Assembly: GCA_017450205.1 (NCBI GenBank)
Contig: JAFSVF010000009.1
Location: 107,491-171,490 of the forward strand
Direction of reading: 5' to 3'
Length of the DNA stretch: 64,000 nucleotides
Source of the DNA: Bacilli bacterium
Lineage (GTDB): Bacteria; Bacillota_I; Bacilli_A; RF39; UBA660
The notes beneath the pieces were generated by a model, which was not told the origin of the DNA, did not search any database, and saw nothing but the letters and a program-made list of their open reading frames with translations. Positions 8,208 through 46,377 of this stretch are shown one piece after another. The first letter of the stretch is position 1; every line of letters starts with the position of its first letter. The translations under genes and the position numbers were made by a program.

Positions 8208-9481
8208 TGAAAAAAATATTTAAGATTTTATTAATATGTATGTTTTTAATTCCATTTGCAGTTAGTGCTGATATGGGTGCTCCTTATATTAAACCAATTG
8301 AAGCTGTAATTACTAAGAAGGGTGGAATTACTGCTAAAGACTATTCTGGTAAAACAAAACATTTTGCTGAAAATGAAGTTGTTTTAGTAACTGGTGTAGG
8401 TAATGAGATAAATATCATTACAAAGAGTAATGATTATTATGATGTTAGTAGTAGTGATATTAAATATATTATCCCTAAAACTAGTGAAGTTAAACCTGGA
8501 GATGATGGAGTAAATAAACTTCAAAAACAAAGAGAGTTTGAAGTAGTTATTGATGAAATTAAAGTTTATAAAGGACCTTCAATCGTATTTCCTGAAGTTG
8601 GTACTTTTAAAAAAGGAACTCAATTAACTGCTTTTTATGAAATGGAAACACCTGAAGCTTTTAGTGAGTGGTTTTATATTCAAGAAGAATCTTTAAGTGG
8701 CTGGATTCAAATCCAAGGTGATGGTGATAATAGTTATCCAGTTTATGAAGTAAATGCTAAACCATTAAAAGTATTATTTACTAGTAATGTTACACTTAAT
8801 GGTGTTGAAATTAAAGAAAATAGTATTTATAAAATCTATTATTGGAGTAATCCTTATTTAACAATTGGACCAGTTATAAAAATAAATAATGATTTTTTAG
8901 ATGTTACAAATGAAAAAGTTGAAATTATTTCTGATTCTAAAAAAGTAACTGGATTATTTCATATGACTCAATTTAATTTTAGCCTTAAAAAAGATACTAA
9001 ATTATATTCAGATTATAAATTAAGTGATGAAATTACAATAATACCAGCTGGTACTAAGTTATCAAATATTAATCTTTTACCTGATTATGTATTTGGTGAT
9101 GAAAATGAAAATTTTATTATTTATGTATCATATAATAACAAATTAGGTTGGATTAAAGTAAATGACAAAGGTGTTGAAAATATAGAAATAGATAATGATG
9201 AGTTAGTTAGTCCTTATATTGATCCTGAAGGCGATGATGGAGAAGAAGATGAAGAACAAACTACTGAACTTGCGGTTGTAGAAGAACCTAAAAAAGGAAA
9301 AAAATTAATAGATAAGAATACTATTATAATTTCTGTTGTAGTTGCTGTAAGTGCTGCTGTTATAGCATTCTCATCAATTGTTTTACTTAATAAAAAGAAC
9401 AAAAAAGATACTTTATCGGAAATTAATGAAGAATTAAGTAAAACTCAAAGTATTAAAATTAATAATAATGATGAAAAATAG
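8207..9481 (+). CDS. Secreted protein with SH3b-like segments and a C-terminal TM anchor
   Basis: Signal peptide VSA-D; VYKGPS...VGTFKKG...WFYI...GWI and YVSYNNKLGWI SH3-like patterns; C-terminal TM. Confidence 0.65.
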   Translation: MKKIFKILLICMFLIPFAVSADMGAPYIKPIEAVITKKGGITAKDYSGKTKHFAENEVVLVTGVGNEINIITKSNDYYDVSSSDIKYIIPKTSEVKPGDDGVNKLQKQREFEVVIDEIKVYKGPSIVFPEVGTFKKGTQLTAFYEMETPEAFSEWFYIQEESLSGWIQIQGDGDNSYPVYEVNAKPLKVLFTSNVTLNGVEIKENSIYKIYYWSNPYLTIGPVIKINNDFLDVTNEKVEIISDSKKVTGLFHMTQFNFSLKKDTKLYSDYKLSDEITIIPAGTKLSNINLLPDYVFGDENENFIIYVSYNNKLGWIKVNDKGVENIEIDNDELVSPYIDPEGDDGEEDEEQTTELAVVEEPKKGKKLIDKNTIIISVVVAVSAAVIAFSSIVLLNKKNKKDTLSEINEELSKTQSIKINNNDEK

Positions 9482-36754: not shown

Positions 36755-37620
36755 TTTTTTTGAAAAAAATATTTGGTGGAATTAATTTAACTTGGTTTAA
36801 ACTAATAGTAATGGCAATAATTGCTGGAGTTTATACTGCTTTAATGGCTATGCTTCCAATAGTTAAAGATACTTCTTTTAGTGATTTGACTGTTACTTTT
36901 GAAGTATGGATTTTTTTAGGAATATTTATAATTATGAATAGTAAATCTCCAATAGATTCTGCATTAAAATGTTTTATATTCTTCTTAATTAGTCAACCAT
37001 TAGTATATTTGGTACAAGACGTAGTTAATCATAGTAATTTATTTAATACTTATTATAGATTTTGGTTTCTATGGACGATAGCTTGTATTCCTATGGGTTT
37101 TATTGGATATTACATGAAAAAGGATAAATGGTGGGGATTATTGATTCTTATTCCTATGTTATTATTAACTGGAGAAATGTGTGCTGGTTATTTGTCTGAT
37201 ACAATGTTTTCTTTTCCAAGACATCTTTTAACTACTATTTTTTGTATGGGTGTATTAATAATCTATCCATTAGCTATATTTAATAATAAAAAAATAAAAA
37301 TTACTGGGGTAGTAATAAGTGGATTATTGATTATTTCAATATTTGTTGCATGTATAATCAATCCTCCTGTTTATAGTACTGATATATTATATAATGGAGA
37401 TAATTATCATTTTGATGATTCATATAAAGTTTATTTAATTGATAAAAAATATGGAGATTTAAGTGTTAAATATGAGCCAGGAATAGAAGATTGGTTAATT
37501 CATGCTGATTTTAAAAAAGCCGGGAAAACTGAAATTATATTAGAGTCTTCAGAGGGGGAAAAAATAGTATTTGATATTACAATTAAGAGAAACACGTATT
37601 CTATAAAAGAAAGAAAATAA
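36751..37620 (+). CDS. Membrane protein of unknown function
   Basis: About 7 TMs plus a soluble C-terminal domain; overlaps the previous stop. Confidence 0.7.
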   Translation: MIFLKKIFGGINLTWFKLIVMAIIAGVYTALMAMLPIVKDTSFSDLTVTFEVWIFLGIFIIMNSKSPIDSALKCFIFFLISQPLVYLVQDVVNHSNLFNTYYRFWFLWTIACIPMGFIGYYMKKDKWWGLLILIPMLLLTGEMCAGYLSDTMFSFPRHLLTTIFCMGVLIIYPLAIFNNKKIKITGVVISGLLIISIFVACIINPPVYSTDILYNGDNYHFDDSYKVYLIDKKYGDLSVKYEPGIEDWLIHADFKKAGKTEIILESSEGEKIVFDITIKRNTYSIKERK

Positions 37621-37814
37621 TGAATAAAGCAGGTTTTGGTAAATTAAAGAGTGAATGGTGGCATTTTCAAGATATATATGATGAAAATAAAAACAAATTA
37701 ACACTAGGTGGTAAAGAAGCTCCTATATTTACATTTGAAATTCAGAAACAGAAAACTACATTAAAGTTCTTTTTTGTTTCTTTTTTTTATTGTACAATTA
37801 TGGTAGGAGAGTAG
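37620..37814 (+). pseudogene. C-terminal fragment of an M15 D-Ala-D-Ala peptidase
   Basis: MNKAGF..L.SEWWHFQD motif only; the rest of the domain is missing. Confidence 0.55.
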
Positions 37815-37820
37815 ATTTAT

Positions 37821-39707
37821 ATGAAAAAAATTAAGACGTTTTTTAAAAAAATAAAAGATAAGATTAAAGGTTTTACTTTAGTTGAGTTATTAGCTGTAAT
37901 TGTAATCCTAGCAATTATTATGCTTATAGCTATTCCAGCTGTATTAAATACACTTCAATCTGCAAGAAAAAAAGCTTTTGTAGAATATACAGATAAAATA
38001 GTTGGTCTTTCAGAACAAAAATACTTAGAAGGTGTTATGACAGGTGAAGCAAGTTATACTTGTTATATATATAATATAAAAACCGATTTAGGACTTAGTA
38101 ATACAGGTGAATATAATGGATATGTTTTAGTTGCACCTACTGAAGATGATAATTATCAATATTGGGTTTTATTATATGATGATAATTACTTTTTAGATGT
38201 AATTGAATATAAAGAATTTCAAACTGATACTGTAGCTAAATTAGTCAATGCACCATCTCAAACGAGTAAATTTGATATGAATTATTTTGCTAAAACTTTA
38301 AAAGAAAAAGGTGTTAATTGTAGTTCTTTTGAATATAATGGTGGTTCAATTGAACCTTCTGATAATATAGATGGTGACAATGAAGGAACAGATTGTGCAG
38401 GACAAACAGTTCATAATTCAGTACCAAAGAGTGCAACTGGTTTATATAAACTAATTGCAGAACAAGCATATATGGATAATGTTAAATCTGAACATGTGGC
38501 ATTCTGTGATGGTATTAAAATAACTGAAGGAAGTGAGGGTTATTTTAAAAACGAAGAAACTAATTCATGGGAATATTTAGAAAATGGTATTGGTGTTTAT
38601 GAGGTTGCTAGTACTAAAGATAACAAGTATCCAATATATTATTTTAGAGGTGATGACATAGATAATAATTATGTTACTTTTGCTAACAAGTGTTGGAGAA
38701 TTGTTAAGACAACTTCAACTGGTGGTATAAAGATTGTTTATAATGGTAATACATGTGACGCTACTGGTAAAAACCTTGGAATTGGGTATCAAGGTTATGA
38801 TACTGGTTATATGAATATTCCAAGTAATTTATATATGCATGGTCCAGTTACTCCTAGAAATAGTTTGAAAACAGCAAATGGAACTGAATATTTATATGGT
38901 CGTGATTTTACATATAGTAATGGTGAATATACTTTAGTTGATACTATATCTTTACCTTATAAAGAAGATATTAGATCAGAGCTTTCAACTCATCATTATA
39001 CTTGTTTAAATACAACAGGAAAGTGTACAACAATTAATTGGGTATACAATATCTATGGTCAAGGATTAGAGTATTATATGATGACTGACGGAAAATCATT
39101 TGATGATGCGTTAAACGAAATGGTATATAGTAATTCTGTTTCTTCTTTAGCAAAACAAACAATTGATAAATGGTATGAAGATAATTTAATAAGTTATGCT
39201 TCTTATATTGAAGATACTCCTTATTGTGAATTTAAAAAATTACAATCATTTGATGCAAAGACAGCGGATATTTCTAGCTATGGAAAGTTCAAGTTATATT
39301 ATGAGTCATATGGTTCTACTGGTAGAAGTTTTAATAATGGTGTTTGTGAGAAACAATATGCTTATACTGTTTCTTCAAGCATTGGTAATGGTGCTTTAAA
39401 ATATCCAATTGCGATATTAAATTCAGATGATCTATTTTATACTGGTGAAGAAGATGGATATTCATTCTTAGATGCTCCTGCTTCATGGGTAATGAATCCA
39501 AAGTTCTTTACGCTTATTTCTACTGACGATGGTGGAAGAGGTGCATTTATGGAAAGTACTAATTACTGGGATGGCGGAGGATTTGAATATTGTGGTGGTG
39601 ATGAAGCCGGCTGCGATAATAATATAAGACCTGCTATTTCCTTAAAACCTGGTACTGATGTTTCTGGTGGAGATGGAACAAAGTCAAATCCTTATGTAAT
39701 AAGATAG
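37821..39707 (+). CDS. Prepilin-type protein with a large C-terminal adhesin-like domain
   Basis: KG|FTLVELLAVIVILAIIMLIAIP; YYFRG...NNYV.FA..CWRIV; IRPAISL...GDGT.SNPY. Confidence 0.85.
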   Translation: MKKIKTFFKKIKDKIKGFTLVELLAVIVILAIIMLIAIPAVLNTLQSARKKAFVEYTDKIVGLSEQKYLEGVMTGEASYTCYIYNIKTDLGLSNTGEYNGYVLVAPTEDDNYQYWVLLYDDNYFLDVIEYKEFQTDTVAKLVNAPSQTSKFDMNYFAKTLKEKGVNCSSFEYNGGSIEPSDNIDGDNEGTDCAGQTVHNSVPKSATGLYKLIAEQAYMDNVKSEHVAFCDGIKITEGSEGYFKNEETNSWEYLENGIGVYEVASTKDNKYPIYYFRGDDIDNNYVTFANKCWRIVKTTSTGGIKIVYNGNTCDATGKNLGIGYQGYDTGYMNIPSNLYMHGPVTPRNSLKTANGTEYLYGRDFTYSNGEYTLVDTISLPYKEDIRSELSTHHYTCLNTTGKCTTINWVYNIYGQGLEYYMMTDGKSFDDALNEMVYSNSVSSLAKQTIDKWYEDNLISYASYIEDTPYCEFKKLQSFDAKTADISSYGKFKLYYESYGSTGRSFNNGVCEKQYAYTVSSSIGNGALKYPIAILNSDDLFYTGEEDGYSFLDAPASWVMNPKFFTLISTDDGGRGAFMESTNYWDGGGFEYCGGDEAGCDNNIRPAISLKPGTDVSGGDGTKSNPYVIR

Positions 39708-39794: not shown

Positions 39795-40696
39795 ATGAAT
39801 AAAGTATTGAGTATTATTAAAGACTTAAATCCTTTTAGTAATAAAAGAATAGATAATAAAATAATTTATACGTTAAAAATATTATTGTCTGCATTTGTGG
39901 TGTATTTTGCTAGTTTAATTATTGCAGAAGGGATTATTATAGGCGGTTCATATTTATTTGGATACAATGCTACTGACAAACAAATGCCTTATGATATTAT
40001 GCTATTATGTACATTTTATGGTTATTTAATTACTATATTATTATTTATATTATTTGCTAAAAAAATAAATAAAATTGAATTAAATAAAATTGGATTAGAT
40101 AAAAATTTTAAAACTTTTTTAAAGGAATATTAATTGGAATGGTATCATTATCATTAATAATAATTTCATTATTAATGATTGGTGCAATTAGATTTAATGG
40201 AATAAACAATAATATTGATTGGTTGTTTTTGGTATTATATTTATTTGGATATTTAATTCAAAGTTTTATGGAAGAGTTAATATGTAGAGGATATTTATTA
40301 CATAGATTAAAAGAAAGAATACCTCTTGTATTAGCTATTATTATAAGTATATTATTCTTTTCAATAGGACATTTTAATAAGATGTTTGTTGATGGTACAT
40401 TGATAGGCGTTATAGGAATAATAAATCTATTATTAATTAGTTTAATATTTGTTGTCATTACATTAAAAAACAAAAATATTTATGGGGCAATAGGTTTTCA
40501 TTTTATATGGAATTTTGCATTATTTAGTATTATAGGTTTAAATCTAAGCGGACTTGAAATTACCAATCCTATTTTTCAAATAGAAGTGGCTAATAAATTC
40601 TTAACTGGATATAGTTATGGAATTGAGTCAAGTTTTATAACAACTATTATACTTATAATTATATTATTATTAACAAAGATAAATGTAAGAATATAA
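39795..40696 (+). pseudogene. CPBP (CAAX/Abi) intramembrane metalloprotease split by a 1-nt frameshift near 40120
   Basis: ORFs 39795-40133 and 40139-40696 join as KTFLKGILIGMV if one A is added; EELICRGY, FSIGH and HFIWN motifs. Confidence 0.8.
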
Positions 40697-40754
40697 TGAT
40701 CGGAAGATTAAGATATTATGATTAGCTATATAGCAAGGGGACTTTAATTAATAT

Positions 40755-40909
40755 TTGATACCGATTTATAGTAACTATAAAAATGATTTAATATTAGAAG
40801 GGATTATAATTAATTTCGTCTTTTTTATGCTATAATTGAATAGAAATTGAGTAATTTCTATGAATAATAAAACTAATATCAATTGGTTGATAACAATTTA
40901 GTCAAGACT
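40755..40909 (+). repeat. Copy 1 of a ~155 bp unit: arm, terminator remnant, promoter, rbgA-like 5' end, arm
   Basis: Shares AATTTCGTCTTTTTTATGCTATAATTGAATAGAAAT and ATG-N8 codons ending TGGTTGAT with 43154-43308; encodes MNNKTNINW. Confidence 0.85.
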
Positions 40910-40929
40910 AATAAGAATTAGGTGATAAA

Positions 40930-41445
40930 ATGAGTAATTTATCTAAAGTAATTTTAGGAACTGGTAATTATTATGATGTAAAAAGTGGTAATACTGTATC
41001 TGTTACAGGTGATGGTGGTAATGCATGGGGATATTTTGGACCAGCATATAAAAGACTAGCCCCTAAACTAGTTACTTATACACCTTATGCTGAAAAATTA
41101 GAAGTATTAGAAGAATTAAAAAAAGATGTCTCTAAATTAAAAGAATATATAGAATTTAGAAAAGAAATAGAAGATGAATATATAAAAAGTTATTATGACA
41201 TAAGACTAAAAGATTTAGATGTTAAAGAGTTACTTTATATATTAAATGAGAAATTTGGTGATTGTATAATATTTTTATGCCATGAACCAATTGATGAATT
41301 TTGCCACAGAAGATTAATTGCAGATTATATAGAACTTGAAACAGGAATATATATTCCAAAAGTAAGTGTAGATGAACAAGGTAATGTTAAAAAACTTGTT
41401 CCAATAAGATATAAAAATAGATTAAAAGAAGTAATGAATAAGTAG
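40930..41445 (+). CDS. DUF488-like protein
   Basis: LAP...; IIFLCHE...FCHRRLIADYIE motif. Confidence 0.65.
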   Translation: MSNLSKVILGTGNYYDVKSGNTVSVTGDGGNAWGYFGPAYKRLAPKLVTYTPYAEKLEVLEELKKDVSKLKEYIEFRKEIEDEYIKSYYDIRLKDLDVKELLYILNEKFGDCIIFLCHEPIDEFCHRRLIADYIELETGIYIPKVSVDEQGNVKKLVPIRYKNRLKEVMNK

Positions 41446-41510
41446 ATGATTTACATTAATAACGAAAATAAAACAAATATAAATTTGTTGATAACAATTT
41501 AATCAAGACT
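41446..41510 (+). repeat. att-like junction: degenerate rbgA-like N-terminus followed by an arm
   Basis: Reads MIYINNENKTNINL then TTGATAACAATTTAATCAAGACT (22/23 identical to 40887-40909). Confidence 0.8.
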
Positions 41511-41532
41511 GATGCAAAAAGAGGTGATAAAA

Positions 41533-42198
41533 ATGACTTTGGAGGATTTAAAAATAGAATATGATAAACTTCAGTTAAAGTATGGAGCTAAAGAATTAGA
41601 TTCTATTTATAATGGTGGATGTATTGATAATCCAGATATATGTTTTGTATTTATGAATCCAACTGGCAAGAATATTGCTTCATCTAAATCATGGAAAGGT
41701 TTAAAATCACCTTGGATAGGTACTAAAAATATTTGGGATTTATTCTATGAATTAAAATTATTAGATAAAGATATATATGATAAAATAAAAACTATTAAAG
41801 GACTTGATTGGACGGAAGAATTTGCAAATGAAGTTTATAATAATGTAAAAAAACATAAATACTTTATAACTAATTTAGGGAAATGCACTCAAATTGATGC
41901 AAGACCTCTTCCTGATAGTGTATATAAAGAATATCTACATCTACTAGAAAAAGAAATAGAAATAATAAATCCTAAAGTAATTGTATTATTTGGTAATCAA
42001 GTTTCTTCTATTGTATTAAATCAAAAAGTGTCTGTTTCACAATGTAGAAAACAAAAATTTGAAAAAAATATTAATGGTAAAAAATATAAGTTTTATTCAG
42101 TTTTTTATCCAGTAGGTAATGGTAGATTTAATATAGGAAAATCTATTGAAGATATTAATTATATTATTGATAATATTAATGATAAAATTGTAGTATAA
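41533..42198 (+). CDS. Uracil-DNA glycosylase superfamily protein
   Basis: FVFMNPT, FITNLGKC, EIEIINPKVIVLFG, FYP; start MTLED after RBS GAGGTG. Confidence 0.75.
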   Translation: MTLEDLKIEYDKLQLKYGAKELDSIYNGGCIDNPDICFVFMNPTGKNIASSKSWKGLKSPWIGTKNIWDLFYELKLLDKDIYDKIKTIKGLDWTEEFANEVYNNVKKHKYFITNLGKCTQIDARPLPDSVYKEYLHLLEKEIEIINPKVIVLFGNQVSSIVLNQKVSVSQCRKQKFEKNINGKKYKFYSVFYPVGNGRFNIGKSIEDINYIIDNINDKIVV

Positions 42199-42383
42199 AA
42201 AAGAAGATGACTCATTATTCAAGAATAAAAGAAAAACTAGGTATAATAAGGGATTGAGAAATTTAATAACTTGTATGTTTAATACAAAATATGAGTAGAA
42301 GTTTAAAGGTGATTACTTCACATAATAATAAGAAATTTAAAGTATAATTAAAGTAAAATATCTCATAGTAATGGAGGTGTAAA

Positions 42384-42833
42384 ATGAGTATAATTTCATC
42401 AGCTAGTTCATCTTCTTCTTGGAGAGGATTAGATTATTATAAGAAAAATAAAATTAAAAATCTTAAGAAGCTAAATGATTTTGAATATACTAGTGAAGTT
42501 ATTGGTAGTGAAACTTATAGTGTTTATTTAGATGTATCTCATCCTAGAAGGTCTACTTGTAATTGTCCTCATGCTAATGGAAAAAGAATAATTTGCAAGC
42601 ATATTGTTGCAACATTCTTTGAAGTGTTTCCTCAAGAAGCAATAAACTTTGAAAAGGAACAAGAAAGATTACAAGAAGAATATGAAGATTATCAAGCAAA
42701 ATTATACAATAAAACACAAAGTTATATTAAATCATTGACTAAAAAAGAATTAATTGATGAATTATCATACATTTTAGATTATGCGCCAGATTGGGTGTAC
42801 AATGATTTTGTAAGAAGAAATGATATTGAATAA
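42384..42833 (+). CDS. SWIM zinc-finger protein
   Basis: RGLDYY, V.GSETY.V, CNCPH......CKHIVA. Confidence 0.85.
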   Translation: MSIISSASSSSSWRGLDYYKKNKIKNLKKLNDFEYTSEVIGSETYSVYLDVSHPRRSTCNCPHANGKRIICKHIVATFFEVFPQEAINFEKEQERLQEEYEDYQAKLYNKTQSYIKSLTKKELIDELSYILDYAPDWVYNDFVRRNDIE

Positions 42834-42850
42834 TAAAAATGGAGGCAATT

Positions 42851-43131
42851 ATGAATAATAAAACGAGGTATTAATATATGAAGATAATGATGGTTTAATA
42901 AGAGTTGATGTAAAGTTTATTGATGAAGATGTTTGGTTAAATCAAAGTCAGTTAGCTGAAATATACAAGACATCTCATGAAAATATTACTATGCATATTT
43001 CAAATATATACAAAGATAAAGAATTACCAGATTCAACTTGTAAGAAATTCTTACAAGGTCAAAAAGAAGGTAATAGGGAAGTTAAAAGAAATATTGATCA
43101 TTATAATTTAGATATGATAATTGCCATATGA
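42851..43131 (+). pseudogene. Truncated, frameshifted RhuM-family DNA-binding protein
   Basis: RBS GGAGG; reads LIYEDNDG..RVDV.F.DEDVWLNQSQLAE...HISNIY...EGNREV.R....YNLDMIIAI. Confidence 0.8.
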
Positions 43132-43153
43132 CCAAGTAAAAAATTATATTTTT

Positions 43154-43308
43154 TTGATTACACCATATTCAAGAACATAAAAATGACTTAAAAATGGACG
43201 AAACTATACTAAATTTCGTCTTTTTTATGCTATAATTGAATAGAAATGGAGTGAATCCTATGGATAATAAAACTAATGTAAACTGGTTGATTACAGTTTA
43301 TAGTAACT
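43154..43308 (+). repeat. Copy 2 of the ~155 bp unit; putative attL containing a displaced rbgA promoter, RBS and first nine codons
   Basis: Terminator GACGAAA..TTTCGTC-T6, TGCTATAAT, GGAG, ATG at 43260 MDNKTNVNW, then arm TTGATTACAGTTTATAGTAACT. Confidence 0.85.
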
Positions 43309-43517
43309 TTTGGAGAAACCCTTTATTTATAAGACATTGCGAGGATTTAAACCTTGCATGTTTATAGTAAAAAATATAAAAAATGATAAATAATAGTCAA
43401 AAATGCCTAAAATATATTAAAAATGGTATAAGAATTAAGGTATTGATTACTGGACAGTAACTACCTTAATTTGACACATCTTATAATGTGTTTTTTTATG
43501 TTCAAATGGAGGTATTT

Positions 43518-43647
43518 ATGAAAGAAGAAATAATTAAAATTAATGTATCTGAAATAGCAGATTTTTCAAAATACCCATTTAAAATTAATAATGATTTAAA
43601 CTAAGAAGAATTAAAAGAGAGTATTAAAGAAAATGGTGTTTTAGTAA
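43518..43647 (+). pseudogene. ParB/RepB/Spo0J N-terminal remnant
   Basis: RBS GGAGG; MKEEIIKINVSEIADFSKYPFKINNDLN*EELKESIKENGVLV. Confidence 0.75.
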
Positions 43648-43870
43648 CTAGCTCTTTTTTTCTTCAATTTCTTTTCCATAGAAAAGCATGATGTAATTAT
43701 AGAAATCTATAATTGCATCACTGTTAATTAAATCATTATATAGATTTTTGTTGTAATCAAAATGTTCTTTTAATATACTGAATAGTTTTCCATTTTCTTC
43801 AAAAATTTTGGAAAAAAGTTTTCTACATAGGTGAACCATATTTTTTGATATAATACAAATCATCTTTCAT
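43648..43870 (-). pseudogene. Frameshifted, truncated hypothetical gene
   Basis: RBS AGAGGGG and ATG at 43870 (MKDDLYYIKK) shift into the 71 aa ORF HLCRKLF...; abuts the ParB remnant. Confidence 0.45.
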
Positions 43871-44020
43871 GGTAACCCCTCTTTTATGTCGTTATTGTTA
43901 TACCATTTTATAAGAAATGCAATTGATTGAATAATACTTTTTATGATACGTAAATACCGGTAATTATGATTGTATCATTTAAGATTGTGTGATATTATCT
44001 ATATGGTAGGAGTGATTTAA

Positions 44021-45013
44021 ATGATATGCAAAAAGTGTGGTACAGCTAATAGTGAAAATGCAGAATTTTGTATTACTTGTGGAAGTAATTTAAAAGAAGA
44101 GATAACTACCATTTTTAATAATAATCAAAATAATCAAGTACCTAATAATGGTACCTCAGCTAACTTATATGACCAAAGTGTAATAGAACCTCAACCAACT
44201 GTTGTTTCTTCGCAATCGGTAGTTAGTAGCCAACATATGGGAAATATGGTAAATACTCAATCTCAACCAAGAAAAAAAAGAAATAGTTTAAATATTATAA
44301 TAATTTTATTAATTATGTTTATCATAGTTATTGCTGGTGGAGCATATTATCTTTTAAATAATAAAGGAAGTATTCCATCTATCAATAAAAGTGATTTAAA
44401 TACTGATGGTGATGTTAAAGAAAATAATAATAATAATGATGATAATTATTATTATTTAATTTTCTCTGACTATAAATTTAGATTTCCGGTTTCATGGTTT
44501 GATAAAAATAAATTATATGGAATAAGTAGTGAACCTGGTTCTATTAGTAATAGGTCAATTATAGGTGTTGCTGATAATGGCAATGAATCATTTTCATTTG
44601 ATTATTACTCTGAGTCTAATTCAACTGGTAAGTATGGACCAGAGTATCAAATTCATAAGTTATGGTCTGCTGGATTATCTAGTAGTTTTTATCCGGCTGA
44701 AGCTCCAGCAAATGATGATCAAATACGTGAAAAAGGTCCATACGTACAGCAAGGAGATACTTATGTAAGAAAAAGTGGTTGTGAGCAATTAAATGGTTAT
44801 AGATTGTTTTGGTATTTAGTTGCTAGTTATGATCAAAATGCAGATGGCACTTATACGACGTCTAATTATTTAACTGCATTTGTTCAAAAAGATGGCGTTA
44901 ATTCTTATTTATGTGCTAGTATAAATAAATTTGTTAAAAAGACTAGTAGTAATGACTCATATGCTTTTACAATGGATGATATATATAAATATTCTGGTGA
45001 AATGGTTGAATAA
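44021..45013 (+). CDS. Zinc-ribbon, single-TM membrane protein
   Basis: CKKCG......FCITCG, N/Q-rich linker, TM, extracellular domain; own promoter and terminator. Confidence 0.8.
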   Translation: MICKKCGTANSENAEFCITCGSNLKEEITTIFNNNQNNQVPNNGTSANLYDQSVIEPQPTVVSSQSVVSSQHMGNMVNTQSQPRKKRNSLNIIIILLIMFIIVIAGGAYYLLNNKGSIPSINKSDLNTDGDVKENNNNNDDNYYYLIFSDYKFRFPVSWFDKNKLYGISSEPGSISNRSIIGVADNGNESFSFDYYSESNSTGKYGPEYQIHKLWSAGLSSSFYPAEAPANDDQIREKGPYVQQGDTYVRKSGCEQLNGYRLFWYLVASYDQNADGTYTTSNYLTAFVQKDGVNSYLCASINKFVKKTSSNDSYAFTMDDIYKYSGEMVE

Positions 45014-45015
45014 TG

Positions 45016-45045
45016 AAAAGTATTGTTACAATACTTTTCTTTTTT
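45016..45045 (+). terminator. Intrinsic terminator
   Basis: GAAAAGTATTG / CAATACTTTTC hairpin plus T tract. Confidence 0.75.
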
Positions 45046-45104
45046 ATATGTAAGGAAGAGTGTTAAAATATTTATAAATTAACTAAAGGTTATGTGTTTA
45101 GACT

Positions 45105-45458
45105 ATATCTTAATGAAAAACAAAAAAACTAATTGAAGAATTAAAAAATTATTATAAAAAATGATTTATTATCAAAAGCAGATTTTGAAGATTTTCATAA
45201 ACAATATATGTATGAATTAAACTCTTTGAGATTATCAAAAAGAAGAATTATAAAACGAAAAAGATAATAAATTTATTTGGATTGGCTTAAAGAAATTAAA
45301 AAAATAAATAAGATTAATACTATAACTAGAAATGTTGTAGATGAGTTTATTTAAAATATATATGTATGTGAAGATAAAAAATAAAAATAGAATTTAAATA
45401 TAAAGATCAATATGAAGAAGCTATTAGGTATCTAAAATCTCAGAAAAGTATGATATAA
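45105..45458 (+). pseudogene. C-terminal remnant of a large serine recombinase with several frameshifts and stops
   Basis: Pieces read LLSKADFEDFHKQY..ELNSL, WLKEIKKINKINTITRNVVDEFI*NIYVCEDK and IEFKYKDQYEEAIRYL, matching the typical recombinase tail. Confidence 0.65.
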
Positions 45459-45459
45459 T
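45451..45459 (+). promoter_or_regulatory. Extended -10 promoter for rbgA, inside the last codons of the recombinase remnant
   Basis: TGATATAAT, 36 bp upstream of the rbgA ATG. Confidence 0.6.
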
Positions 45460-45495
45460 GTAATAGTGAGTTGTCATTAAAAAGGAAGTGATCTT

Positions 45496-46377
45496 ATGAC
45501 AAATAATAATGAAAATAACGAGTTACGAAAAAACGTAATCAATTGGTATCCTGGTCATATGGCTAAAACTAAAAGAGAAATAAATGATTTATTACCATTA
45601 ATTGATGTAGTGTATGAAATAGTTGACGCTAGAATACCACAATCTTCTAGAATTGAAGATATAGATAATATTGTTAAGAATAAACCTAGAATTATTATTA
45701 TGACTAAAAAAGACTTATGTGATTTAGAAGAAACTAATAAATGGATTAATAAATATAGAAATGAAGGTCATACTGTAGTTTTAGTTAATTTAAATAATAA
45801 TGATGATTTGAAATATGTTTTAAATGAAACTAAAAAAATTGGTGATGAAATTAATAAGAAACGTCTTGATAAAGGCTTAAAAGAAAAAGAATTAAAAGCT
45901 TTAGTAGTAGGAATACCTAATGTAGGTAAATCCACTTTTATAAATAGAATGGCTGGTAAAAAAGTTGCGGGTGTAGGTAATATGCCAGGTGTAACTAAAA
46001 ATCTAGTTTGGCTTAAAACAAAATCTAATATCCTTTTACTTGATACTCCTGGTATTTTATGGCCTAAATTTGATTCACAAGAAATCGCTAGAAATTTAGC
46101 TGCTATGAGTGCAATAAAGATGGAAGTATATGATAATGATGAAGTTGCTATTCATGTTCTTAATAAATTAAGTAAATATTATCCTAATTATTTAGAAGCT
46201 AGATATGGATTAACTGAATTTGATAATGATGATATTGGTGAAATGTATGATAGAATTGGTAAAAAGTTAGGATATATCATTAGAGGTGGAGAAATAGATT
46301 ACGCTCGTGTTTCTACATCAGTTATTAATGATATTAGAAATGAAAATATAAAAGGAATTACATTCGATAGAATTTAA
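45496..46377 (+). CDS. rbgA: Ribosome biogenesis GTPase RbgA (YlqF)
   Basis: INWYPGHMAK, DARIP, GIPNVGKST, DTPGILWPK. Confidence 0.97.
   Translation: MTNNNENNELRKNVINWYPGHMAKTKREINDLLPLIDVVYEIVDARIPQSSRIEDIDNIVKNKPRIIIMTKKDLCDLEETNKWINKYRNEGHTVVLVNLNNNDDLKYVLNETKKIGDEINKKRLDKGLKEKELKALVVGIPNVGKSTFINRMAGKKVAGVGNMPGVTKNLVWLKTKSNILLLDTPGILWPKFDSQEIARNLAAMSAIKMEVYDNDEVAIHVLNKLSKYYPNYLEARYGLTEFDNDDIGEMYDRIGKKLGYIIRGGEIDYARVSTSVINDIRNENIKGITFDRI

What the first reader, a model, noticed from the sequence alone, without database searches (positions are those of the whole stretch)
40755..45547. Tandem att-site/cassette array at the 5' end of rbgA, built from displaced copies of its N-terminus
Seen in sequence: three junctions each encode an rbgA-like N-terminus that stops at the Trp-codon position (40860 MNNKTNINW, 41446 MIYINNENKTNINL, 43260 MDNKTNVNW). 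Each is followed at once by a related arm: TTGATAACAATTTAGTCAAGACT, TTGATAACAATTTAATCAAGACT, TTGATTACAGTTTATAGTAACT. The real gene continues NW-YPGHMAK at 45541. Joining 40886 or 43286 to 45547 restores an in-frame rbgA with an upstream TGCTATAAT promoter. The junctions split the region into units of about 0.6, 1.8 and 2.3 kb. Established: SCC elements accumulate in tandem at rlmH/orfX using serine recombinases, and rbgA is a known ICE target in streptococci. Inference: this is an SCC- or integron-like gene-capture platform driven by a serine recombinase, where each unit regenerates the target site. I do not know of it being described in this lineage.
Basis: partly seen in the sequence, partly recalled or inferred. 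Interest (0 to 1): 0.88.

Follow-up and report, generated by a model that had tools for sequence, protein, structure and literature searches.

The report
Serine-recombinase cassette array at rbgA
Upstream of the essential ribosome-assembly gene rbgA lies a stack of small mobile gene cassettes and a gutted conjugative element, each of which once supplied the gene's first codons, and the same kind of stack, resembling an integron but built on serine-recombinase sites, recurs across a whole family of uncultured gut bacteria.

Summary
Three displaced copies of the rbgA start, each followed by a TTGATWAC arm, divide 40755-45546 into units of 601, 1799 and 2260 bp.

The unit next to rbgA is a gutted conjugative element. 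Window 45111-45458 is the broken 3' end of a 527-aa large serine recombinase (LSR). It is 88.7% identical in DNA to an intact gene that sits directly before rbgA in relative G188, at the end of a 38-kb element with transfer genes.

Arrays of this kind occur in 38 of 301 genomes of the family, with up to 11 cassettes. I delimited 286 distinct cassettes. Their median length is 849 bp, most hold one ORF, and 268 are co-oriented with rbgA. They fall into 228 sequence clusters and have different neighbours in different genomes. One window cassette is 94% identical to a copy whose adjacent rbgA is only 68% identical. An intact LSR lies just upstream of rbgA in 12 of 30 LSR loci examined.

This genome holds no intact rbgA-type LSR, so its array is probably frozen. 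I found no published description. No recombination was observed.

The parts
40755..40777 (+). Arm-like sequence (TTGATACCGATTTATAGTAAC..). It is the left edge of a 131-bp unit without an ORF, here called promoter module copy 1.
   Evidence: 4 mismatches to the arm consensus; the same arrangement is seen in L097
40777..40886 (+). Promoter module copy 1: extended -10 TGCTATAAT at 40828-40836, an RBS, and a displaced rbgA start MNNKTNINW at 40860-40886.
   Evidence: D1; similar sequence in more than 30 loci of other genomes
40887..41487 (+). Cassette U1 (601 bp): arm 40887-40909, a 171-aa ORF at 40930-41445 (weak DUF488 match), and a degenerate displaced start at 41446-41487 that ends TTG instead of TGG.
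   Evidence: 92-94% nt identity to cassettes in L155, L177, L145, L080 and L170; cluster 2
41488..42203 (+). Cassette with a gene of the uracil-DNA-glycosylase superfamily (41533-42198) behind arm 41488-41510. Its right junction is degenerate.
   Evidence: UDG family 4, below the curated cut-off; 88-93% nt identity to L153, L166, L234, L083 and L093; arm-like remnant at 42206-42238 (D10)
42204..43153 (+). Unit holding a SWIM zinc-finger gene (42384-42833) and a frameshifted, truncated RhuM-family gene (42862-43131).
   Evidence: the same SWIM plus RhuM-fragment block is 83% identical in L177 and L129
43154..43286 (+). Promoter module copy 2: arm-like sequence at 43154-43176, TGCTATAAT at 43228-43236, and a displaced start MDNKTNVNW at 43260-43286.
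   Evidence: up to 95% identical copies in L143, L224, L191, L090, L097 and others
43287..43465 (+). Left end of a decayed ICE: arm 43287-43309 plus a conserved leader of about 175 nt. The leader includes a second arm-like motif at 43441-43465.
   Evidence: same arm and leader at the left end of the 38-kb element of G188 (position 9425)
43518..43650 (+). Fragment of the ICE's ParB_N gene (first ~44 codons, with an in-frame TAA at 43602). Homology stops near 43650.
   Evidence: the intact 301-aa homologue in G188 (L249 9622-10524) is ParB_N, E 1.6e-18. The match of the fragment was read by eye from the two translations.
44021..45013 (+). A 330-aa zinc-ribbon membrane protein gene followed by a terminator-like hairpin at 45015-45039. 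It is cargo of the decayed unit and its origin is unknown.
45111..45458 (+). Pseudogene remnant: the 3' ~115 codons of a 527-aa large serine recombinase. It is truncated at the 5' end and carries frameshifts and stop codons. It contains an outward-facing extended -10, TGATATAAT, at 45451-45459.
   Evidence: blastn 88.7% over 453 nt to L115; alignment; tblastn 76-77% aa identity, E 5.8e-32, in two frames
45496..45546 (+). The first 17 codons of rbgA, MTNNNENNELRKNVINW, supplied by the element. This is the right end of the decayed ICE.
   Evidence: G188 has the same N-terminus with one difference (T for N), directly behind its intact recombinase
45547..46377 (+). The host part of rbgA (YPGHMAK..). 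Homology with the closest relative starts at 45538.
   Evidence: (MMR_HSR1 GTPase)

Best explanation
The 4.8 kb before rbgA is a tandem pile-up (accretion) of mobile units at the attachment site of a family of large serine recombinases (LSRs). The site lies in the first codons of rbgA, and the exchange point is in or next to the Trp codon of ..NW|YPGHM.

How it works. Every element of this family carries at its right end its own RBS, start codon and 9-17 codons ending AAYTGG, often with an outward-facing extended -10 promoter. It carries a TTGATWWCRATTTA.. arm at its left end. Integration therefore gives the essential gene a new 5' end. The previous 5' end is pushed upstream, where it is now followed by the newcomer's arm. 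Repeated arrivals build an array, with the newest unit nearest to rbgA.

What is in this window. The proximal unit (43287-45546) is a conjugative element that has lost everything between its two ends. What remains is the left arm and leader, about 44 codons of its ParB gene, some cargo, the last ~115 codons of its second recombinase, and the N-terminus it donated. The distal units are small cassettes without a recombinase (a DUF488-like gene, a UDG-like gene, SWIM plus a RhuM fragment) and two 131-bp promoter modules. All of these also occur, nearly identical, in other species.

The genome has no intact recombinase of this type, so the array is probably immobile unless a visiting element supplies the enzyme.

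What is shown: the repeats, the remnant, the intact homologous element and the recombinases next to rbgA in relatives, the diversity and reshuffling of cassettes, and their horizontal spread.

What is inferred: that the LSRs are the enzymes acting on these junctions, that cassettes move as units in trans, the exact exchange point, and the order of arrival.
For: Repeats and unit sizes.

Recombinase remnant: 88.7% nt identity over 453 nt to G188, whose intact 527-aa LSR ends 37 bp before an rbgA starting MTNNNENNELRKTVINW. At protein level the match is E 5.8e-32.

G188 element at 9425-47604: it has the same arm and leader and an intact ParB_N gene. It also has a type IV coupling protein, a MobA/VirD2 relaxase and an M23 peptidase. 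Two overlapping LSRs with Resolvase, Recombinase and Zn_ribbon_recom domains close its right end. Upstream of it lies a second LSR pair with its own displaced N-terminus followed by the arm.

LSR position: an intact LSR lies 900 bp or less upstream of rbgA in 12 of 30 LSR loci, and two more loci have degraded copies.

Distribution: the junction pattern occurs in 38 of 301 family genomes and 34 of 214 genera, against 1 control hit. Nearly all were gut or rumen MAGs titled Bacilli, Erysipelotrichaceae, Acholeplasmatales or Tenericutes.

What follows the N-terminal ends: of 396 distinct ends, 299 are followed by the TTGAT arm, 44 by rbgA and 53 by something else.

Cassettes: 286 were delimited, median 849 bp. 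The longest ORF is co-oriented with rbgA in 268, opposite in 4, and absent in 14. They fall into 228 clusters, 193 of them singletons. Shared cassettes have different neighbours.

Horizontal spread: U1 is 94% identical to an L155 cassette whose rbgA-rnhB is 68% identical. The UDG cassette is 88% identical where the core is 66%.

Synteny with the nearest relative breaks at the AATTGG.

No tyrosine recombinase lies on the array contigs of G062, G070, G067 or G197.
Against: No recombination product was seen. Public-run contigs simply break at the repeats and gave no clean excision or circle joint.

Most arrays have no recombinase on the same contig. G070 has a 6-junction array in a 93%-complete assembly and no resolvase-domain hit at all.

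LSR homologues are no commoner in array-bearing genomes than in the family at large. By my own tally, 25 of 38 array-bearing genomes have one, against 198 of 301 overall.

The left half-sites of the elements resemble the host's. Under the textbook LSR model, the junctions would then be attL-like and locked without a directionality factor (PMC3783163, passages).

The dyad symmetry of the sites is weak, and the best symmetry centre of the host site (the A of TGG-TAT) is 1-2 nt from the end of shared sequence.

Some junctions in the window are degenerate (41485 TTG; about 42204).
Confidence: 0.8

Rival explanations
1. The array is a dedicated gene-capture platform that works like an integron. Single-gene, promoterless cassettes are its normal currency. 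They are inserted, excised and reshuffled one at a time by a recombinase acting in trans. They are expressed by read-through from promoter modules and are retained because rbgA downstream is essential. On this reading the conjugative elements are only one user of the site. The natural short LSRs, which lack the coiled-coil that enforces direction, would be the cassette recombinase.
For: Cassette architecture is uniform: 203 of 285 hold exactly one ORF of 60 aa or more, with a median of 45 nt from the stop codon to the next junction. Of 272 cassettes with an ORF, 268 are co-oriented with rbgA.

The pool is very diverse, and order is shuffled between genomes. Up to 8 junctions lie within 8.4 kb (L175).

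The cargo spectrum is dominated by GNAT acetyltransferases (15 of 148 scanned), NUDIX hydrolases and methyltransferases.

Promoter modules of 131 bp without an ORF recur inside arrays.

Short LSRs of 410-417 aa sit inside or next to arrays or directly before rbgA (G067, G111, G104, G311). They lack about 100 aa exactly where the coiled-coil lies in longer relatives.
Against: No cassette circle or insertion polymorphism within a species was observed. Many arrays have no short LSR in the genome. Cassettes could also arise by decay of larger elements. Removing the coiled-coil from the LI integrase abolished integration in one assay (PMC3783163, passages). Structure prediction to confirm the missing coiled-coil could not be run.
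Confidence: 0.4
2. The units are only debris. Each is what is left of a separate large element after deletion, and later shuffling is by homologous recombination between the 70-100-bp conserved junctions. There is no site-specific movement of cassettes.
For: The proximal unit in the window is clearly a deletion remnant. The SWIM unit carries a truncated RhuM gene. Some arrays persist without any LSR. The junction repeats are long enough for homologous exchange.
Against: There are 286 cassettes with precise common boundaries and mostly one intact ORF each. The same cassette is found at 92-99% identity, with the same ends, in species whose rbgA is about 68% identical. Independent deletions would not give the same end points.
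Confidence: 0.15
3. A tyrosine integrase of the Tn5252/Tn5253 kind drives the array. Such integrases target the 5' end of rbgA in streptococci, and the long direct repeats would be its identity segment.
For: Streptococcal ICEs integrate in the first ~20 nt of rbgA and restore the reading frame by duplication of the site (PMC8571831 and PMC4701971, passages). The geometry is the same as here.
Against: None of the tyrosine-recombinase hits in G062, G070, G067, G197 or G000 lies on an array contig. The genes that abut rbgA or the junctions are LSRs.
Confidence: 0.03
4. The repeats are an assembly artefact: mis-joined strain variants of one rbgA promoter region.
For: Contigs of relatives often break at or within a few bases of the TGG (L019, L030, L020). 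Public-run contigs break at the repeats.
Against: The same architecture is seen in more than 100 independently assembled records. These include a one-contig 1.19-Mb genome (G150) and a 742-kb contig (G005). The three window copies differ from each other (84% and 68-89%). A run of another study holds the proximal unit in the same arrangement (X5 records 14-16).
Confidence: 0.02

Closest known systems
Staphylococcal cassette chromosome (SCC/SCCmec) and the enterococcal cassette chromosome (ECC), moved by the ccrAB pair of large serine recombinases
   Same: Both insert at the end of a conserved housekeeping gene and duplicate the gene's terminal codons as a direct repeat. Both form tandem composite arrays that include recombinase-less members. 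In both, two adjacent LSR genes sit at the end of autonomous members, and gene content is highly variable. ECC abstract: PMC6222049. The SCC details are recalled.
   Different: The target here is the 5' end of rbgA, not the 3' end of rlmH, so elements must also supply translation and transcription signals. Most units are tiny single-gene cassettes (median 849 bp). Autonomous members are conjugative. Orthology of the LSRs to Ccr was not tested. The best solved relative by sequence is TnpX.
CIME-ICE accretion in streptococci (cis-mobilizable elements)
   Same: [quoted passage not shown] Unit 43287-45546 fits this definition exactly.
   Different: The described cases mostly use tyrosine integrases and involve one or two decayed elements of several kb. 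They are not arrays of up to 11 one-gene units spread over a bacterial family.
Tn5252/Tn5253-type ICEs at rbgA
   Same: The target gene and position are the same: the site overlaps the first ~20 nt of the coding sequence, and duplication restores rbgA (PMC8571831). Some of these insertions replace the upstream promoter (PMC4701971).
   Different: The streptococcal rbgA-targeting ICEs are reported to encode tyrosine integrases (PMC4701971). The passages I read describe no arrays of cassettes.
Integrons
   Same: Both have arrays of mostly promoterless, co-oriented, single-ORF cassettes drawn from a very diverse pool, with insertion next to a fixed site. GNAT acetyltransferases are prominent among the cargo. 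That they are also prominent in chromosomal integrons is recalled, not checked.
   Different: There is no IntI tyrosine recombinase and there are no attC hairpin sites. Cassette ends are half-sites of a double-stranded att site that doubles as the 5' end of an essential gene.
Tn4451/Tn4453 TnpX and Tn5397 TndX, the LSRs of clostridial transposons
   Same: These are the closest solved sequence relatives of the catalytic domain (TnpX 2mhc, E 6e-22 for one protein and 3.6e-38 for the profile). They are LSRs of conjugative or mobilizable elements of Firmicutes.
   Different: Those enzymes act alone and choose different targets (recalled). Here the LSRs come as pairs or as short coiled-coil-less forms, specific for rbgA.
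Tycheposons of Prochlorococcus
   Same: They are cargo-carrying integrative elements that pile up at a conserved gene end in small, streamlined genomes. I saw only the search listing and the start of the abstract (10.1101/2020.12.28.424599); the rest is recalled.
   Different: They use tRNA gene targets and mostly tyrosine recombinases. They are not one-gene cassettes that mimic a protein's N-terminus.

Membership tests
Large serine recombinase | Resolvase catalytic domain plus Recombinase domain plus zinc-ribbon domain | tested here: met
   The feature is met in the intact relatives: G188 LSR1 and LSR2 and the G104 short LSR. The window holds only the last ~115 codons, broken, so the window's copy is a pseudogene fragment of a member.
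Large serine recombinase | Coiled-coil motif inserted in the zinc-ribbon domain, which controls directionality | tested here: inconclusive
   The 522-527-aa forms have about 100 aa there, and this stretch aligns to SPbeta integrase ~395-485. The 410-417-aa forms lack it.
SCC-type element | ccr-type LSR gene or pair on autonomous members | tested here: inconclusive
   Overlapping LSR pairs lie next to the site in G188, G283, G183 and G247. Orthology to CcrA/CcrB was not tested.
SCC-type element | Integration at the 3' end of rlmH (orfX) | tested here: not met
   The site is the 5' end of rbgA.
SCC-type element | [quoted passage not shown] | tested here: met
Integron | IntI-type tyrosine recombinase next to the array | tested here: not met
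   No Phage_integrase hit lies on the array contigs of 4 relatives or near the window array.
Integron | attC sites (imperfect hairpins) ending each cassette | tested here: not met
   Cassette ends are the conserved RBS plus N-terminal mimic and the TTGAT arm. No Rfam match.
Integron | Co-oriented, mostly promoterless single-ORF cassettes | tested here: met
   268 of 272 cassettes with an ORF are co-oriented, and 203 of 285 have a single ORF. Lack of promoters was not tested.
CIME / ICE accretion | Element without integration and transfer genes that keeps both att ends, next to the target gene end | tested here: met
   Unit 43287-45546 keeps the ICE's left arm and leader and its right end, with a dead recombinase. 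The units at 40887-43286 have no recombinase.
CIME / ICE accretion | A related functional ICE with the same site specificity exists | tested here: met
   The G188 38-kb element has a coupling protein, a relaxase and an LSR pair. Function is inferred from intact ORFs only.
CIME / ICE accretion | Excision or mobilization together with an ICE | not testable with these tools
   Public-run contigs gave no usable joints.
Tn5252/Tn5253-type rbgA ICE | Tyrosine integrase at the element end | tested here: not met
   The genes at the element ends are LSRs. The tyrosine integrase is stated in PMC4701971.

The most novel reading that the evidence does not exclude
A family of uncultured gut and rumen Bacilli runs a serine-recombinase counterpart of the integron. 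It is a standing gene-capture platform in the first codons of the essential gene rbgA. One-gene cassettes, each ending in a mimic of the gene's ribosome-binding site and N-terminus, are inserted, excised and reshuffled. The enzyme would be a natural coiled-coil-less, and therefore direction-free, large serine recombinase, or the LSR pairs of visiting conjugative elements. Cassettes would be expressed by read-through from mobile 131-bp promoter modules. As a by-product, the N-terminus of an essential ribosome-assembly GTPase would be continually rewritten by mobile DNA.
Probability: 0.4. Interest if true: 0.9.

Novelty: new variant of a known kind. Interest (0 to 1): 0.78.

Why it matters
Integrons are the textbook system for stockpiling and reshuffling single genes, and they rest on tyrosine recombinases. 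This locus and its many relatives suggest that a lineage of small-genome, AT-rich gut and rumen Bacilli reached a similar solution with large serine recombinases, by placing the attachment site inside the start of an essential gene.

If the cassettes move as units, three things follow:
- It would be a new route of gene flow in a large uncultured group: 228 sequence clusters among 286 cassettes in the sample examined.
- It would offer a natural set of LSRs with matched att sites, including naturally coiled-coil-less forms that bear on how direction is controlled.
- It would be a case where mobile DNA repeatedly replaces the promoter, RBS and N-terminus of an essential protein.

All of this can be tested with plasmid recombination assays using sequences already in hand.

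Tried and rejected
Own-genome LSRs. The three intact LSRs elsewhere in the genome (C15, C1, C11) do not match the remnant. They are 34% identical or less to the rbgA-type enzymes, so they are not candidates by similarity.

Profile search for the remnant. A profile of seven short LSRs did not detect it significantly (45202-45408, i-E 1.1). The remnant was identified only once the 527-aa homologue was in hand.

Sequencing runs. Four runs of one study hold 0.89-0.97 of the stretch, and runs of other studies hold 0.11-0.18. All are short assembled contigs that stop at the repeats. The listed joints have 20-25-nt sides and look like repeat noise. One contig that joins 43284 to 45549 has 4 unexplained letters at the joint. 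I draw no conclusion from it about excision, habitat or strain.

Viral contigs. The scan gave 4 hits, all chance matches in unrelated phage genes, so no free phage-like form was found.

Rfam. Nothing lies in 40500-45700 except a sub-threshold CRISPR-repeat match.

Promoter scan. The consensus scan found no more sites than in shuffled sequence (68 against 62). The promoter calls rest on the TGnTATAAT motif read directly from the sequence.

Dyad symmetry. The test of the consensus sites was weak and did not fix the exchange point.

LSR co-occurrence. LSR presence does not track array presence.

Defence and naming libraries. PADLOC and NCBIfam added nothing firm for the window's cargo.

Full report
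**Context.** The window is C28:107491-171490 of a 1.41-Mb, 28-contig, 92%-complete genome with 25% G+C. Records with similar loci are MAGs titled Bacilli, Erysipelotrichaceae, Acholeplasmatales, Tenericutes or Bacillales, from rumen and gut samples.

**1.
- The three rbgA-like starts and their arms are at the stated coordinates.
- The repeat finder reports a three-copy 47-nt family at 40866, 41467 and 43266, with spacings of 601 and 1799 nt. It also reports a 124-nt repeat at 40777-40900 and 43177-43300, 84% identical, which carries TGCTATAAT.
- The real gene, 45496-46377, is an MMR_HSR1 GTPase of the RbgA kind. It starts MTNNNENNELRKNVINW and then continues YPGHMAK.
- In the window's own genome the probe finds only these three places at E<1e-10.
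- Additional features: arm-like sequences at 40755 and 43154, about 105 nt before each promoter-bearing copy, and an arm-like remnant just after the UDG-like gene (D10).

**2. Gene content of the units.**
- 40930-41445: a 171-aa protein with a weak DUF488 match.
- 41533-42198: uracil-DNA-glycosylase superfamily. It resembles family 4 but scores below the curated cut-off.
- 42384-42833: a SWIM zinc-finger protein.
- 42862-43131: a frameshifted, truncated RhuM-family gene.
- 43518-43650: a fragment resembling the start of a ParB gene, with an in-frame stop.
- 44021-45013: a zinc-ribbon membrane protein, followed by a terminator-like hairpin at 45015-45039.

**3. The unit next to rbgA is a gutted conjugative element.**
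- Window 45111-45560 is 88.7% identical over 453 nt to locus L115 of relative G188.
- In G188 the sequence is the 3' end of an intact 527-aa recombinase. That gene stops 37 bp before an rbgA starting MTNNNENNELRKTVINW.
- The window copy lacks everything 5' of about 45111 and carries frameshifts and stops. At protein level it still matches at 76-77% identity, E 5.8e-32, in two frames.
- In G188 this recombinase is the second of two overlapping LSR genes (564 and 527 aa). Each has Resolvase, Recombinase and Zn_ribbon_recom domains. They lie at the right end of a 38-kb element.
- The left end of that element is TTGATTACGATTTATAGTAACTTTT.., followed by an intact 301-aa ParB_N gene. The element also has a SpaA/thioester adhesin, an M23 peptidase, a MobA/VirD2-like relaxase and a type IV coupling protein.
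- The window's arm at 43287, its ~175-nt leader and its ParB fragment correspond to that left end.
- Unit 43287-45546 therefore keeps both ends of an ICE and almost nothing between them. This is the published definition of a cis-mobilizable element (PMC5704250, passages).
- The remnant also holds an outward-facing TGATATAAT at 45451-45459, 37 nt before the rbgA start codon (read). The element thus appears to bring a promoter as well as an RBS and N-terminus.

**4. Relatives show that this is a system and not a local accident.**
- The junction pattern AAAACNAATATNAAYTGGTTGA, with up to one mismatch, occurs in 38 of 301 genomes of the family and 34 of 214 genera. Within a genome the hits are on one strand and clustered. 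The pattern read backwards occurs once.
- An exact-pattern scan of one genome per species reached its limit at 120 stretches. One 8.4-kb contig holds 8 junctions (L175).
- A few single hits in unrelated phyla lack the N-terminal context and look like chance.
- In all fetched loci I found 396 distinct N-terminal ends. Of these, 299 are followed by a TTGAT-type arm, 44 by the real YPGHM, and 53 by something else. Several of the last group are other recurring arm types.
- The consensus of 293 junctions is AAGGAGTTGATCCAAATGAATGAAAATAAAACTAATATAAACTGG | TTGATAACGATTTATTCAAGCCC.., followed by a second conserved block at +30 to +48. That block was not part of the search pattern.
- Contigs of several relatives end at or within a few bases of the TGG (L019, L030, L020).

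**5. Cassette statistics.**
- Between consecutive junctions I delimited 286 distinct intervals. One, in the window, is a false interval caused by a chance match in the CAAX protease gene. It was dropped.
- Median length is 849 bp, with an interquartile range of 704-1283 bp.
- The longest ORF of 60 aa or more runs the same way as rbgA in 268, the opposite way in 4, and is absent in 14.
- 203 of 285 hold exactly one such ORF. The median gap from the stop codon to the next junction end is 45 nt, which is just the RBS plus the N-terminal mimic.
- At 75% identity over 70% of the length, the cassettes form 228 clusters, 193 of them singletons.
- Cassettes shared between genomes have different neighbours. 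Cluster 8 occurs in L234, L178 and L143; cluster 7 in L138, L234 and L189; cluster 5 in L133, L131 and L236.
- I scanned 148 of the 208 cluster representatives that have an ORF of 70 aa or more. GNAT acetyltransferases are the commonest family (15), followed by NUDIX (5), methyltransferases (4), RhuM, histidine phosphatases and HAD hydrolases (3 each), and others.

**6. Evidence for horizontal movement.**
- The window's 601-bp cassette is 92-94% identical to copies in five other records. In L155 the adjacent rbgA-rnhB is only 68% identical to the window's.
- The UDG cassette is 88% identical in L093 and L181, where the core is 66% identical.
- The SWIM plus RhuM-fragment block recurs at 83% in L177 and L129 with the same truncation, so it travels as a unit.
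- The promoter module recurs at up to 95% in more than 30 loci, sometimes several times per array.
- In the closest relative, G001 (core 87% identical), homology with the window begins at 45538, at the AATTGG. Upstream it has an unrelated gene, a TGTTATAAT promoter and MNDNKTNINW.

**7. Which enzyme.**
- No tyrosine recombinase lies on the array contigs of four relatives.
- LSRs abut the site. Of the 30 best LSR loci from a family-wide search, 12 have an intact LSR 900 bp or less upstream of rbgA, 10 of them within 37-73 bp. Two more have degraded copies there. In every such case rbgA has a non-standard N-terminus.
- These LSRs come in two forms. One is pairs of about 565-590 plus 522-534 aa, as in G188, G283, G183 and G247. 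The other is short single forms of 410-417 aa (G104, G311, G111, G067, G098).
- The short forms are 40-43% identical to the second LSR of the pairs along their whole length. They lack about 100 residues between the zinc ribbon and the C-terminal strands.
- A profile of these proteins aligns with SPbeta integrase (9dxh) over 7-474/16-485, E 6.6e-34. The missing stretch aligns with about 395-485 of that integrase.
- In LSRs the coiled-coil that enforces attP x attB selectivity and locks attL and attR is inserted in that domain (PMC3783163 and PMC11722253, passages).
- That the short forms are natural coiled-coil-less enzymes is therefore an inference from alignment.

**8. Exchange point.**
- Host and element sequences share AAYTGGT and then diverge.
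- In a second arm family (CTG[TC]C[CT]TGTATTTAT..), 6 of 9 displaced junctions read TGC rather than TGG (one search list). This suggests that the last base of the Trp codon already belongs to the incoming arm, which would put the exchange at or left of the TG. This is inference.
- The symmetry test did not settle it.

**9. Tandem growth is seen directly in G188.** A displaced standard start MNENKTNINW is followed by an arm and by homologues of the ICE's genes on contig C3. On contig C10 an LSR pair with its own displaced N-terminus is followed by the arm of the second ICE, whose own LSR pair abuts rbgA. That the two contigs join is inferred.

**10. State of the array in this genome.** The only rbgA-type recombinase sequence is the remnant. 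One junction has lost its TGG (41485), and another is barely recognisable (about 42204). The array is best read as a fossil that an incoming element could still use or mobilise.

**11. Literature.**
- ICEs at the 5' end of rbgA are known in streptococci. They are reported with tyrosine integrases (PMC4701971, passages; PMC8571831, abstract and passages).
- Accretion and CIMEs are known (PMC5704250, passages).
- ccrAB-driven cassette chromosomes are known in staphylococci (recalled) and in enterococci (PMC6222049, abstract).
- Six full-text searches found no paper describing serine-recombinase-linked arrays of one-gene cassettes at rbgA. The library does not hold most subscription journals, so this is absence from those searches only.

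**12. Weaknesses.**
- No recombination event was observed. The public-run contigs were uninformative.
- Arrays often lack a recombinase nearby, and G070 lacks any.
- LSR presence does not track array presence.
- Junction detection used a pattern derived from the window, so conservation inside the pattern is partly by construction. Other arm or N-terminal types are under-counted.

Noticed in passing
own genome C28:102476-104110 versus window 45496: rplS and lepB lie 48.9 kb upstream of rbgA in this genome. lepB is 55 bp from rbgA in G016, about 3 kb away in G019 and about 8.8 kb away in G022. The variable region before rbgA may therefore be far larger than the recognisable array. The window's first 40 kb holds accessory-looking genes (FtsX/MacB, a histidine kinase, asparagine synthase, NAGPA) and no ICE hallmarks.
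   Followed up: partly
L101 904-2133, L099 1501-2736, L107 1483-2718 and others: Short LSRs of 410-417 aa lie next to rbgA or inside arrays. They lack about 100 aa at the position of the coiled-coil that controls direction in other large serine recombinases.
   Followed up: partly
relatives' rbgA starts (L012-L041, L099-L128): The N-terminus of RbgA before the invariant W(Y/F)PGHM is very variable in this family: MNENKTNINW, MTNNNENNELRKNVINW, MDMYQKRKMRAEKKN..SISW, MNEEEILKKTKIPQW and others. The long forms sit behind recombinases (for example L113), so part of an essential protein is supplied by mobile DNA.
   Followed up: partly
window 43287-43465 and 50 of 281 cassettes: A conserved leader of about 175 nt follows the arm in the ICE and in a subset of cassettes. 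It holds a hairpin (43338-43358), A-rich direct repeats and a second arm-like motif (43441-43465). Its function is unknown.
   Followed up: partly
junction consensus, +30 to +48 after the TGG: A second conserved block, AACCCTTATAAAATAAGG (a short palindrome; AAC present in 95% of 293 junctions), lies beyond the ~25 bp expected for an LSR half-site.
   Followed up: no
L068, L084, L147, L160, L210, L230, L136, L233, L184: A second arm family (CTGTCCTGTATTTATGACGAC..) and others (TATAAACCGACTTATGGAAAA.., TAAGTTCCGCCTTATG..) follow the same N-terminal mimic. Different recombinases may share the site.
   Followed up: no
window 37620-37811: A 64-aa ORF matches the C-terminal end of a 194-aa ORF that lies two genes before rbgA in G006 (L047 15314-15898). 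It is probably another gene fragment in the variable region. It has no Pfam match.
   Followed up: no
window 37821-39707: A 628-aa protein has a prepilin-type N-terminal methylation motif (N_methyl, E 1.3e-07). ORFs of 660 aa (L043 10968-12950) and 604 aa (L087 16945-18759) with an N-terminus that looks similar by eye lie near rbgA in two relatives; their similarity to it was not tested.
   Followed up: no
JAGAWU010000040.1, JAGAWU010000009.1 and three more contigs of the same MAG (L175, L188, L189, L166, L173, L137): One MAG carries at least 19 exact junction matches spread over five contigs. This is the largest set seen.
   Followed up: no
L092 13273-14442 (G197:C24): A 389-aa ORF on the opposite strand interrupts the array just after its last junction. 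By its N-terminus it looks like an IS110-type transposase. This was not tested.
   Followed up: no
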